64,000 bases of DNA, taken from positions 24,428,001-24,492,000 of the forward strand of contig OZ024754.1 of NCBI GenBank assembly GCA_964016885.1, read 5' to 3'. Source of the stretch: Eledone cirrhosa. Taxonomy: Eukaryota. Each line of letters starts with the position of its first letter. Position 1 is the first letter of the stretch. This document shows, piece by piece, positions 9,956 through 38,479 of this stretch. The notes under the pieces were generated by a model that saw only the letters and a list, made by a program, of their open reading frames with translations, had not been told where the DNA came from and made no database searches. A program made the position numbers and the translations under genes.

Positions 9956-11877
9956 CTTGCAGAGGTACCCGGCGTTGCTCGGGTATTAAATAGCAGTTAT
10001 GTATACCATTTATGTCAATACTTCAGTGCTGCTTCGAAAACTATACTTTTACAAAATCATCGGCTTTTTCCAAAAGGGGGTTCCTGCCCCCAGGGATCCC
10101 CTACTCAATATGTGCCAATTCTGAGAGTTCACATTCATCTGTAGAACAAACGTAGCCCATGTGTCAAGTTTTGTGAAAATCGGTTGCGAACTCCAGAAGT
10201 TATGACGTTTTGTTGCATTGCACTGCAGTGCTTCAGTCGACTCCAAGTAAGTGGCTAAAGAGGGTTGTCTGCCGAGAGGCCCTATAATCAATATCTGGAA
10301 AAATGAAAGTGCCCATGACCATCCGGAGTACATAAGTAACCTATGTCTTAAGTTTGGTGAAAATACTGTGGAAATGCATAAGGTTTACACACACACGCGC
10401 GCGCGTGCGTGCGTGCGTGCGTCTGTGCGTATGTGTGTTTGTGTGTGTGTGTATATTTGTGTGTGCGTATGTATATGTATGTGTATGTCCGTCGGCGTAT
10501 ACGTATGTACTGTCCTAAATCTTCACTATTTACTTTTACTATTTTAATAACCTCTGTCATTTTCGTTTTCAATTTTATTTACATCATTCTTAAACTCCAG
10601 GGCTAGAAATCATTCAGTTATTTTAAATAGAATATTAGTCTAACGATTCCATTTATACCATAAACTTGGTCTTGTCTTTGCATGAAATTGTTCTTTCCGC
10701 TCCACATAACGACGTATTATCCTCGCTTTTTCCCGTTCATTACCAGGGAACGTCTTCACGAATCAAAGTATCGTCTTCCTGTTTTCCTTCGGTCGAAACG
10801 TTTCTCGAAATATTTACTTCTGCGTTCACAGATTAAATTTTTTAGTTTCAGAAGATCCCGTTAATGTTGAAAGCAGCGATTCTTTGCTTAAACTTTAATC
10901 TGTTCTTATAACAAATCTATACATATATATATATATATATATATATATATATATATATATATATATATATATATATATATATATATATAGAGAGAGAGAG
11001 AGAGAGAGAGAAGAGATGCTTTGACCAGCAGTACGTTGATCGGTATTATTACGAAAAGGTGTAGCAGAGAATCCCGCGTGAACTACAGCTCGGGAGGAAA
11101 CTGCTTATCTCGAACATTCATTCGCCATCGTTCTTGTCAACGCTCCGTTTACTTGGTATTTGTTGGTCTACAGTTAGATGAATGGCGCACAAAGGGTTAA
11201 TGTTTATTGGCAAGAAGTTTTTTGAATAATAAAAGACGGGTTAAAGCGACCTACAATGTATCTGTGTGTAGATACATATATATATATATATATATATATG
11301 TGTGTGTATGTATGTATGTATATATATATATGTGTGTGTATGTATGTATATATATATGTGTATGTATGTATGTATGTATGTATATATATACAGTATATAT
11401 ATATATATATATATATGTGTGTGTGTATATACATATATTTTTATGTGTATATTTATATATGTGTATATGTGTTTGTATATGTATATATATATATATGTAT
11501 ATGTGTATATATGTGTGTGTATATGTATATATGTGTATATATATATATGTATATATACGTATATATGTATGTGTGTGTGTGTGTGTGTGTGTGTGTGTGT
11601 GTGAATGTAGCGAAGCTAATACGTCAGCGATGTCGTTATGCAGACAGCCAGACATACAGACAGATATTATAAGGGCTCGACGGAGATCGATAACCGGCGC
11701 CGAACACCCCTTTAACAACAGAAAATTGAAAAATAAAAGCCGCAGTTAGTATCTTTAGACCGCAAGGAATATATAAATGCAAGTTTGAAGTCAATCGGAG
11801 TAGAAATGTAGATTTGTATAGACTTTGCAAAAATGAGGACACACACACACAGACACCAACAGTTTTATATATAGAGA
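9956..11877 (-). mobile_element. Non-autonomous Helitron-type element (possibly two partial copies with nested insertions)
   Basis: Subterminal hairpin cccggcgttgctcggg at 9968, shared with 53073; minus-strand 5' TC at 11877 and 3' CAAG at 9956. Confidence 0.5.
10844..10894 (+). ncRNA. HHR-like motif, CAGAAGA core family
   Basis: AGTTT-CAGAAGA-TCCC gttaa...-GAAA-GCA...TGC-TT-AAACT; stem II mutated in this copy. Confidence 0.55.
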
Positions 11878-12779
11878 TTACTGTGAGTTTTAAATATTAG
11901 GAGCCAGTAATAGACAAGCGAGTCGGTTTGTTTACAATATACTTTTAATGGATGCTAAATAAATTCAAATTATATATCGGGTAACATACATATATTGTAT
12001 ATATTAATAATAATTATAATAATATCAATAAATAAAAACAAGAAACAATAGACATATAACAAATTACTCACTAAATTACTTAACTAAATTTTTGTATTCT
12101 TTTACGAGAGACAACAGGTGTCTCATCGAAAAGATAAGTAAAAATATCAAAGAAGCCAAAATAACTCTTTTAAAACGAAAAATAATAAAAATAATCACAC
12201 AGAAAAATAAATACTTATCTTTTACAGGGAATGTTGGTTAAAATAGAAGTACTCAAACAATTTCCGTGATGTATTTGGATGAAAAACAGAGCAGAAGAAA
12301 AACACATCAAGCGTCCAAGCAATCCAGCCGTAATATATATATATATATATATATATATATATATATATATATATATATATATATATATAATATATATATA
12401 TATATATATAATATATATATATATATATATAATTTAATTATGTAATAAACAACACAATATAATTATTCCATTACACTTATATTAACACACTTTTGCTCAT
12501 AGCTTCGTACTTACATGCACACACACTCTTTTACTCACATATACACACATATTTCTTCTTAGCTTCGTACGGACTTATAATAACACACACACACACAAAC
12601 ACATGCTTACGCACGTGCTCAAGTATAGCTCTTTTTACAAAGCGTTTTTTTTTCCCCATTTCAGGTAGACGTGCTCCATCATCTACTTTTCTAAAAAAAT
12701 AAGTCATACACAAAACGCCAGCATCATCAGTTTTGCAAGAGTTGTCAACATGAATGAACCTGTTATTTTTATCTAAAGA

Positions 12780-12960
12780 GATTTTTTTCCAATTCCATCC
12801 CGCCCGTCCCCTCAATCTATTTTATTTCTCATTCTTTCTTCTGATGAAGGACTAGCGTCCGAAACGTTAAGACCCTCTCCTTGCTATATCAAGCGTTAAC
12901 CTAACATATACCTTCCATATACTGTACTGATTGTGTTGTTATTTCTGTTTATCTTTTACA
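12780..12960 (+). mobile_element. Solo pLTR-like unit with HHR
   Basis: Near-identical to 46682-46860; tail fragments at 29115-29175 and 46436-46525 (-). Confidence 0.75.
12837..12872 (+). ncRNA. Minimal type I HHR
   Basis: TCTT-CTGATGA-A-GGAC tagc GTCC-GAAA-CG-TT-AAGA. Confidence 0.85.
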
Positions 12961-13449
12961 TATATATATATATACATATTCATTTTATTAAGGCTATATA
13001 GTGAGTCTTGTATACTCCGGAGTTTCGCCTGTTTATCACAGGGTCATCATACACACACACGCACACACGCACACACACACATACGCACACACACACACAC
13101 ACATACATATATATATGACTTTTTGTTCTTCTTGTAAAGAGAAAGACAAAAAAATTGGTATATACACGTTTCACAGATTATTGACCATTGACAAGATGAC
13201 AACCATCCTTACACTTCTCTTTGTGGAGAGGATTTTATACAAGCCGTTTATCTTTAACAGATGCAATGAAGAACTTAAGTGAAATGGTTAAACCAATGTT
13301 GACTATGTGCATTCTTTTGGCACATATATCTGTAGGTAACAACCTTTACTTCCAACAGGTTTTATTTGAAACATGGATGTACACCATGTTGTTCATGTTT
13401 ATTAAAGATTTCTTATATCTACATATTTGTATTTATTCTGGAACAATAA

Positions 13450-13672
13450 TGGTTTCTTATATAGGCACAGCACAAGGCCAGCAATTTTGGTGGAGGGGAA
13501 AGTCGATTCAATCGACCCCAGTGCATGACTGGTACTTTATTTTATCGACCCCGTAAGGATGAAAGGCAAAGTTAACCTCGGCGGGATTTGAACTCAGATC
13601 ATAAAGGACCGTAACGCTATGCTGCAAAACATGGCGTCCGACCCTCTACAGATAGTGCCAATCCACCGCCCT
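13450..13672 (-). mobile_element. SINE family 1
   Basis: Full-length match to the family core and head. Confidence 0.85.
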
Positions 13673-13757
13673 TAAAGGTTTGATTAATAATAATAACACT
13701 TCAACCTATATTTGATCTTTATTTTGCTGAGTATACTTATTCAACATTATTACCTTT

Positions 13758-13948
13758 GGTGGAGGATTGGCAGTATCGATAGAGGGTCGGACACCATGCT
13801 TTGCGGCAAAGAGTTACGGCCCTTTATGGTCTGAGTTCAAATCCCGCCGAGGTTAACTTTGCCTTTCATCCTTACGAGGTCGATAAAATAAAGTACCAGT
13901 AATACACTGGGATAATTGCTGGCCTTGTGCCAAAAGTAGAAATAATTA
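13758..13948 (+). mobile_element. SINE family 1
   Basis: Full-length match. Confidence 0.85.
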
Positions 13949-36630: not shown

Positions 36631-36704
36631 GATATTTTTATATATATATAAATATATATATATATATATATATATATATATATATATATATATATGTGTG
36701 TGTG

Positions 36705-36955
36705 GATGCACGTGGCCTGGTGGTAAGGTTAGACTTGTGATTATGATGTGGTTCGATTCCTAAGTTGCGTGTTGTGTTCTTGAGCAAAACACTTCATTTC
36801 AGTATACTCACCTGAAAATGAGTACCAGCAATAGCTGGAGGTTTAACCCTGCGATGGACTGGCGTCCTGTCCAGGGGGAGTCTTGTACTCTCAGTCGCTT
36901 CACGCCATGAAACCAGGTTAAGCACCGGCCAAATGAGCCTTCTGGCTTAAGAAAG
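36705..36955 (+). mobile_element. SINE family 2-like
   Basis: tggcctggtggt...ggttcgattcc...ttgagcaaaacact. Confidence 0.7.
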
Positions 36956-37176
36956 AATATATATATATATATATATATATATATATATATATATATATAT
37001 ATATATATATATATATGTATATATATAGTCTCAAGTCTGGCTTATATATATTATATATATTATATATAATATATAATATATATATATATATATATATATA
37101 TATATATATATATATATATATATATATATATATATATATATATATATATATATATATATATATATATATATATATA

Positions 37177-37387
37177 TTATTAAAATAACAGATTAAAGTT
37201 TAAGCAAAGAATCGCTGCTTTCACCATTAATGGAATCTTCTGAAACTCAGAAGATCCCGTTAAGGGTGAAAGCAGCGATTCTTTTGCTTAAACTTTAATC
37301 AGTTATTTTAATAAATATTTGCTCTAGGATTCTTAAATATTTGATATATATTTATTCTTATCGAGCCCTCTTTGGATTTTAGTCTTC
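37177..37387. mobile_element. Head-to-head palindromic insertion of the CAGAAGA-HHR family
   Basis: Junction tcttctgaaactcagaaga at about 37247. Confidence 0.8.
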
Positions 37388-37390
37388 GCA

Positions 37391-37578
37391 TGGTGGATTG
37401 GCAGTATCGGTAGAGGGTCGGACGCCATGCTTTGATACATAGAGTTACGGCCCTTGCCATTCTGAGTTCAAATCCCGCCAAGGTTAACTTTGCCTTTCAT
37501 CCTTACGGGGTCGATAAAATAAAGTACCAGTAATACACTGGTTATTTGCTGGCCTTGTGCCAAAAGTATAAACAATTA
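37391..37578 (+). mobile_element. SINE family 1
   Basis: Match to the family consensus. Confidence 0.85.
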
Positions 37579-38479
37579 TTATTACTATAATATATATATA
37601 TATATATATATATATATATATATATATGTGTGTGTGTGTGTGTGTGTGTGTATAGATATAGATATATAAATACATATATAGAGAGAGATAGCTAGATATA
37701 GATGTTGATGTAGATACGCGCCTACAAGTATATGTATATATATATATATATATTTATACATACATGTATGCGTGTGTGTATACATAAATATATATATCCA
37801 TATTGATATTTCTCACTCTCATTCACTGACTCGCTCTACACACACACATATATATATATATATATATATTTATTAAAATAACAGATTAAAGTTTAAGCAA
37901 AGAATCGCTGCTTTCACCCTTAACGGGATCTACTGAAACATATATGTATATGTGTGTGTGTGTGTGAGTTTGTGTGTGTGTATATATATATATATATATA
38001 TATATATATATATATATATATATATATATATATATAATAAAATGGGGAGGAAAATACTGCTGGTAGTACATGGATAACATGTAATAAAATAGTGATTTGC
38101 CGACGATCATAGATATTTCATTGCATTATTATATATATATATATATATATATATATATATATATATATATATATATATATGTGCGTGTGTGTGTGAGTTT
38201 GTGTGTGTATATATATATATAAATATGTGTGAATGAAGTAATTCCGTCGGAAAAGTCCAGGAAAAAAGAGTGCTCTATGTAGGTAACAGAGCTTAATAGT
38301 TATATATATATATATATATAACTATTATATATATATATAACTATATGTATATATATATTTATATATGCATATATATAATGTATATATATAATGTATGTGC
38401 ATGTATATATGTATATATATATATATACATATATATATATGTATATATATATATGTATATATATATATTAATTATAATA

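What the first reader, a model, noticed from the sequence alone, without database searches (positions are those of the whole stretch)
10844..37938. High-copy family with a fixed non-canonical CAGAAGA (U4A) core
Seen: consensus AGTTT-CAGAAGA-TCCC gttaa GGGT-GAAA-GCA gcgattctt TGC-TT-AAACT in 8 copies or fragments (10844, 15565/15632, 34548, 36575, 37177/37247, 37868). A4 is present in every copy with a legible core; an unrelated motif at 56243 also has CAGAAGA. Its T-CC(C)..(G)GG-T stem II parallels the canonical-core motif at 54712. U4 is normally near-invariant, so this is either a functional variant or a catalytically weak family that still amplifies (inference).
Basis: partly seen in the sequence, partly recalled or inferred. 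Interest (0 to 1): 0.75.

Follow-up and report, generated by a model that had tools for sequence, protein, structure and literature searches.

The report
Penelope hammerhead with fixed core mutation
A young, abundant jumping gene in this animal genome carries, in over thirteen thousand copies, a hammerhead self-cutting RNA motif with a change at a normally fixed core position; it likely cuts weakly or not at all, which would make it a natural test of whether such elements need the ribozyme to spread.

Summary
Observation confirmed. The eight copies are 3'-end stubs of the pseudo-LTR of a young, autonomous Hydra-clade Penelope-like retrotransposon (709-aa RT/GIY-YIG ORF; motif in both pLTRs). 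The motif is a type I hammerhead with A at core position 4. A4 is fixed genome-wide: 13,593 exact copies against 118 with any other base, where U is no commoner than G. It spans three subfamilies. None of 68 hammerhead hits beside related metagenome elements, and none of 25 published Hydra families, has it. The U10.1-U11.1 stem II is ordinary for Hydra elements. The 56243 motif is no independent support (private mutation), and the 10844 copy rides in a Helitron-like element with stem II broken. Published mutagenesis predicts low activity, and a published Penelope element inserts in vitro without ribozyme cleavage. A weak or silent ribozyme that is tolerated is therefore most likely (about 0.6). 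Mild conservation of the fold leaves a functional variant open (about 0.25). Cleavage is untested and no RNA run was listed. The scan has noted Hydra hammerheads elsewhere in this genome; a sequence look-up found no note on this motif.

The parts
10844..10894 (+). A4 type I hammerhead motif with stem II broken (two G>T changes); predicted cut 10889|10890
10626..10916 (+). pLTR/3'-UTR fragment of the Hydra-clade element (84% identical to a young copy), ending in (TA)n
9955..11875 (-). Non-autonomous Helitron-like repeat that carries the 10844 copy. TC start near 11875; hairpin plus degenerate CTAG end near 9955. Helitron end motifs are recalled.
15562..15632 (-). Fold-back left arm: A4 motif from C3 to the short 3' end
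15635..15796 (+). Fold-back right arm: motif with C3 changed and A4 kept, plus the long tail
24033..24142 (-).
34548..34614 (+). Stub truncated inside the core (position 4 absent)
36538..36629 (+). Stub truncated inside the core (36576-36629), joined to an inverted tail piece (36538-36589)
37172..37247 (-). Fold-back left arm: full stem I and A4 core, with private changes in stem II
37247..37387 (+). Fold-back right arm: A4 core from C3 onward, plus tail
37866..37939 (-). Stub with A4 kept and A6 changed
54678..54802 (-). Comparison only: fold-back of another family with a canonical U4 core and the same U-U flank, followed on the - strand by Hydra-type ORF fragments (54294-51263, 34-47% identical)
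56243..56275 (+). Comparison only: unrelated degenerate hammerhead-like motif whose A4 is private

Best explanation
The motif is the type I hammerhead in both pseudo-LTRs of a young, autonomous Hydra-clade Penelope-like retrotransposon, its master copies carry A at core position 4, and it likely cleaves weakly or not at all. Shown: the element's structure (pLTR, 709-aa ORF, 1-kb UTR, pLTR; unit 3.24-3.26 kb); fixation of A4; insertion into (TA)n; two 3' ends about 25 and 115 nt past the predicted cut, with copies reading intact across it; inverted 5'-truncated arms; splicing of a 754-nt intron in some copies. Inferred: the RT starts at two internal sites 3' of the motif on uncut (or re-ligated) RNA, so cleavage is not rate-limiting. 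U4A was therefore tolerated in the master lineage and spread by hitch-hiking. The fold may be kept for residual protein-assisted cleavage or as a protein-binding structure.
For: Element: (6 of 30 loci show both pLTR motifs). Fixation; A4 in 12 of 12 legible copies in a 780-kb sample taken at fixed positions and 21 of 22 in an older subfamily. Of the first 30 of 640 apparent CTGA copies, 28 sit at fold-back junctions, not in intact motifs. Low activity expected: Roberts 2023 (PMC9901934, passages) found all single mutants of the CUGA region low; Perreault 2011 (PMC3088659, passages) reports natural U4C considerably lowers in-vitro activity. Dispensable: Frangione 2024 (PMC11167929, passages) found catalytic mutants do not affect insertion in vitro and unprocessed RNA is the main substrate. 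No excess of 5' junctions at the predicted cut: 667 against 948 in a control window 10 nt upstream. The hammerhead fold (-12.8 kcal/mol) is not the minimum-energy fold (-15.6). Another repeat family here carries a non-canonical second box in 20 of 20 aligned copies.
Against: No cleavage assay and no RNA data. All other core positions and the three stems are intact, with a 9-bp distal stem I and a 4-bp stem III. There are 0 fixed changes in the 51-nt motif between two retrotransposing subfamilies, against about 3.5% elsewhere (P = 0.17; branch-wise P about 0.10-0.13; motif plus tail 1/165, P = 0.03). The junction test has no positive control, includes indel artefacts, and would probably be null for canonical elements too. 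The published mutant data come from other hammerheads, and I saw no number for U4A itself.
Confidence: 0.6

Rival explanations
1. A4 is a functional natural core variant. The long bulged stem I, loop II and a monomer-competent stem III, perhaps with help from the ORF protein, compensate, and the element uses cleavage to make unit-length or circular RNA.
For: The other core positions are canonical. No change in the motif on the young branch (0/51, and 0/72 including the short end; P 0.04-0.13), while the Helitron-borne copy fixed two stem-II-breaking changes. Stem III is longer than in most Hydra motifs. Perreault 2011 suggests tertiary contacts offset variant cores. Frangione 2024 shows a protein-assisted Penelope hammerhead.
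Against: Conservation is not significant for the motif alone and could reflect RT/EN binding. A4 is seen in 0 of 68 outgroup hits, which suggests it is normally selected against. The deep-scan text reports no rescue of CUGA mutants by second mutations.
Confidence: 0.27
2. The ribozyme is fully dead and unconstrained; the motif looks intact only because the family is young.
For: Top ORF copies are 95-97% identical to the query; the conservation P-values are weak.
Against: A4 predates the split from a lineage 11% divergent in the UTR (18/161 sites). About 2-3 changes were expected on the young branch and none is seen.
Confidence: 0.1
3. A4 was selected because it creates a 3' splice acceptor (pyrimidine tract followed by CAG) inside the core.
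For: The sequence reads as an acceptor. The element has a real intron in this UTR. In D. virilis an intron ends at helix I (Cervera 2014, parts 1-2 read).
Against: All spliced junctions found use the acceptor 102 nt upstream; none joins to the core (3 HSP pairs in 2 loci; joints shown, 4 not shown). The sample is small.
Confidence: 0.04

Closest known systems
Hydra clade of C-terminal EN+ Penelope-like elements (Craig et al. 2021, PMC8557442; section 11, passages and supplement part 2 read), e.g. Hydra-1_Ajap, Hydra-1_Obim
   Same: Single ORF with C-terminal GIY-YIG, RW[K/R], DKT, CxCX5C linker, CxxC and CxH, no CCHH; (TA)n targets; type I hammerhead near the 3' end, often with U-U at 10.1-11.1
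   Different: All 25 Hydra families listed have a CTGA core (found with a canonical descriptor); this one has A4, a 9-nt loop III and a unit slightly over 3 kb
PLE hammerheads (Cervera and De la Pena 2014, PMC4209133; parts 1-2 read, 2 supplement files searched, 1 not searchable)
   Same: Type I motif in pLTRs, massive dispersed stubs; low activity reported for the class
   Different: The core change reported there is U3-A8. The searched supplement holds 45 CUGAUGA/CUGAAGA strings and no CAGA(U/A/C)GA. This motif has a real stem III rather than a dimer-type minimal one.
Natural hammerhead core variants (Perreault et al. 2011, PMC3088659; sections 8, 9, 17 and passages read)
   Same: U4C, U3-A8, A6C and U10.1-U11.1 show that core changes occur in nature, usually with lower activity
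   Different: U4A is not named in what I read. Figure 5 and the Dataset S1 alignments could not be seen.
PAc Poseidon element of Anolis (Frangione et al. 2024, PMC11167929; passages read)
   Same: Two internal RT start sites defining a tail; AT-rich targets; pLTR hammerhead
   Different: Different clade; canonical core; cleavage shown in vitro and needing the protein

Membership tests
Hydra-clade PLE | Single RT ORF with C-terminal GIY-YIG, flanked by direct pLTRs | tested here: met
   709-aa ORF. Motif on both sides in 6 of 30 loci, 3243-3259 bp apart. YxDDG 30/30, [IV]VY..YIG 30/30. Pfam gave no relevant hit; Atlas neighbours carry GIY-YIG/RVT_1.
Hydra-clade PLE | CxCX5C linker; CxxC and CxH around the conserved E and N; RWK-like and DKT motifs; no CCHH | tested here: met
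   linker 28/30, CxxC..E 30/30, CKH 28/30. RLRWR 9/30 and [DN]KT 18/30 in frame (not found in that frame in the others). Absence of CCHH judged by eye.
Hydra-clade PLE | Insertion into (TA)n; inverted 5'-truncated arms; optional tail | tested here: met
Hydra-clade PLE | Placement inside the Hydra clade in an RT tree | not tested
   No tree with named references was built; only a by-eye match to the published alignment
Type I hammerhead ribozyme | Three stems around the core, stem I open, NUH site | tested here: met
   The descriptor finds it, with 0 hits in 3 shuffles of 844 kb. The fold is 2.8 kcal/mol above the minimum.
Type I hammerhead ribozyme | Consensus core C3 U4 G5 A6 N7 G8 A9 ... G12 A13 A14 A15.1 U16.1 H17 | tested here: not met
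   Position 4 is A in 13,593 of 13,711 exact copies; the other positions are met
Type I hammerhead ribozyme | 10.1-11.1 base pair | tested here: not met
   U-U; a known tolerated mismatch, common in Hydra elements
Type I hammerhead ribozyme | Self-cleavage at the predicted site | not testable with these tools
   No run on record as RNA was listed; the genomic junction test was null and has no positive control
Type I hammerhead ribozyme | Covariation in stems among relatives | tested here: inconclusive
   The motif is identical between two subfamilies, so there is no covariation to score
Non-LTR retrozyme | Non-coding tandem units each with a hammerhead | tested here: not met
   Copies are dispersed stubs of a coding element

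The most novel reading that the evidence does not exclude
The first natural, active U4A hammerhead: a core substitution thought to be crippling is rescued by the element's bulged stem I, its monomeric stem III or its own RT protein, and has been kept under selection through the amplification of tens of thousands of copies. Hammerhead searches that fix CUGA would then be missing a real class.
Probability: 0.25. Interest if true: 0.7.

Novelty: new variant of a known kind. Interest (0 to 1): 0.45.

Why it matters
Why Penelope-like elements keep a hammerhead is open: Craig 2021 calls its function unclear, and Frangione 2024 found cleavage unnecessary in vitro. Here a recently expanded family with intact ORFs has fixed a core change absent from all relatives checked, beside canonical-core families in the same genome and a Helitron-borne copy as a no-RNA control. 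One cleavage assay decides between two useful results. [quoted passage not shown]

Tried and rejected
Rfam scan of the window: no hammerhead among the 150 of 303 hits shown. 56243 as a second A4 family: rejected. L207, the only other A4 hit among 35 descriptor hits in 844 kb: decay, as its family has 96 T, 2 A and 2 C in the first 100 of 861. CAGAAGA at 17010/17109 is stem II of a U3-A8 hammerhead family, not a core. The 640 CTGA matches as a canonical sister subfamily: rejected, 28 of the first 30 are fold-back junctions. An antisense hammerhead: no core on the reverse strand (by eye). Splice-acceptor selection: no junction found. Expression: no RNA holder listed; the six runs are contigs of unknown kind and show no molecule ends; X5/X6 have low depth and were not used. 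Positive control for the junction test: not run. RT tree: not built. Literature: ten searches and supplement searches showed no natural U4A. Not seen: Lunse et al. 2017 and Scott 2013 (not held), the Perreault Dataset S1 and figures, one Cervera supplement file, the Roberts per-mutant values (supplement only listed), and subscription papers such as the Ruffner 1990 mutagenesis (recalled only). Any of these may bear on novelty or on U4A activity. Li 2026 bioRxiv: part 1 of 5 read. PMC6765202, PMC3376415, PMC12192606, PMC3846280: passages only.
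Full report
Observation. The window is microsatellite-rich DNA of a 3.0-Gb genome. Position 4 is legible in 6 of 8 copies and is A in all 6; two copies are truncated inside the core. The motif parses as a type I hammerhead: 5-bp stem I, core C-A-G-A-A-G-A, U-U-flanked 3-bp stem II with a GUUAA loop, GAAA, 4-bp stem III, a CUU site, and a 9-bp distal stem I beyond a bulge. A descriptor free at position 4 finds it in 844 kb of sample and finds nothing in three shuffles.

Fixation. Exact 28-mers number 20,249 with A4 and 640 with T4, but 28 of the first 30 T4 hits sit at head-to-head fold-back junctions. 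With stem I required, there are 13,593 A4 copies against 118 others, split 39 G, 36 T and 25 C in the first 100. That is decay, not a canonical sister family. In 780 kb taken at fixed positions, 22 fragments were found; 12 of 12 legible ones have A4.

The element. Upstream of some copies lies a GIY-YIG ORF. A protein search scored 86 copies at 95-100% identity, many with 713-codon open frames. In the top 30 loci every legible motif has A4, and 6 show the motif on both sides of a 709-aa ORF, 3243-3259 bp apart. The protein has the Hydra-clade marks listed by Craig et al. 2021. Copies end in (TA)n about 25 or 115 nt past the predicted cut, and often carry an inverted arm. The window copies are such 3'-end stubs. 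Some genomic copies lack a 754-nt GT-AG intron of the UTR, so spliced sense RNA is sometimes the template; these copies also read intact across the cut site.

Subfamilies. An older set (about 89-94% identical in the ORF) has A4 in 21 of 22 legible motifs. The 10844 copy belongs to a third set: 18 copies identical over 85 nt were returned among the 40 scored. It sits inside a Helitron-like repeat and has two fixed changes that break stem II (the Helitron end motifs are recalled). Its UTR differs from the young set at 18 of 161 sites, yet it has A4, so A4 is older than these splits. Fixed changes in the 51-nt motif: 0 between young and older sets, against 34 of 977 elsewhere (P = 0.17); 0 on the young branch, against 8 of 178 upstream (P about 0.10-0.13); motif plus tail 1 of 165 (P = 0.03). 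This is suggestive of constraint, not proof.

Outgroups. Craig's File S2 lists 26 motifs for 25 Hydra families, all with CTGA cores and 14 with T..T flanks; the list comes from a canonical descriptor. My free descriptor on 78 related metagenome loci gave 68 hits in 50 loci: 60 CU, 4 UU, 1 CC, 3 others, 0 with A4; five shuffles gave one hit in total. In this genome, the 54712 family is canonical with the same flank and is followed by Hydra-type ORF pieces. The A4 at 56243 is shared by 0 of 19 relatives, and the A4 at L207 by 2 of 100. A4 is therefore a derived trait of one family; the U-U flank is ordinary.

Does it cut? Not shown. Against: mutants of the CUGA turn were low in a deep scan; natural U4C lowers activity; the hammerhead fold is 2.8 kcal/mol above the predicted minimum, with z = -0.85. 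5' junctions are not enriched at the predicted cut (667 against 948 in a control window); some hits are indels and no positive control was run. A Poseidon element inserts in vitro with a dead ribozyme and uses unprocessed RNA. For: all other core positions and stems are intact, stems I and III are fuller than in most Hydra motifs, conservation is mild, and protein-assisted cleavage has a precedent. No RNA run was listed.

Mechanism committed to. The element is transcribed in tandem context and its RT starts at two internal sites 3' of the motif on uncut or re-ligated RNA at a nicked (TA)n target (inferred from the ends). Cleavage is then not limiting, and a U4A change in the master spread with it. 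The fold may persist for residual or structural reasons. Element identity is near certain; the weak-ribozyme reading is about 0.6, a functional variant about 0.27, fully dead about 0.1, splice-site selection about 0.04.

Novelty. The element and its motif are of known kinds. A family-wide U4A was not found in ten paper searches or four supplement searches, but several key sources could not be seen (see Tried and rejected). Verdict: new variant of a known kind; interest 0.45, and 0.7 if it proves active.

Noticed in passing
L110, L061 (also by eye L058, L082); L114:3087-3841: Genomic copies with precise loss of a 754-nt GT-AG intron from the UTR/pLTR. This shows that spliced sense RNA can be the template, which bears on the antisense-template idea in PMC3846280.
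   Followed up: partly
window 9955-11875 (-): Non-autonomous Helitron-like repeat that captured a pLTR fragment and amplified it as DNA; at least 1,119 first-look candidates for the 85-nt query.
   Followed up: partly
window 56243-56275; L412-L430: Repeat family whose second hammerhead box reads GACA or further-changed forms instead of GAAA in 20 of 20 aligned copies, with a weak stem I: a possibly dead motif in a family with about 1,500 candidates (copies were chosen by likeness to the query).
   Followed up: partly
window 15632/15635 and 37242/37248; L031-L060, L071: Fold-back junctions recur at the core and stem I, many explained by a tiny local palindrome, and occur in both arm polarities, so they look like independent events.
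   Followed up: partly
window 17010/17109 and 3858; L096, L110, L169, L174: U3-A8 core hammerhead families (a known variant).
   Followed up: no
window 14273; L189:4736; L337:2168: Hammerhead hits with C4 cores; not checked whether family-wide.
   Followed up: no
L383:2765 (-): Hammerhead hit with a swapped G3-C8 pair in a metagenome contig.
   Followed up: no
window 18500-19206, 48025-49290, 51263-54294, 58129-59169: Fragments of other Penelope-like ORFs; also LINE RT pieces at 6808-7512 and 35510-36050 (LINE label by eye).
   Followed up: no
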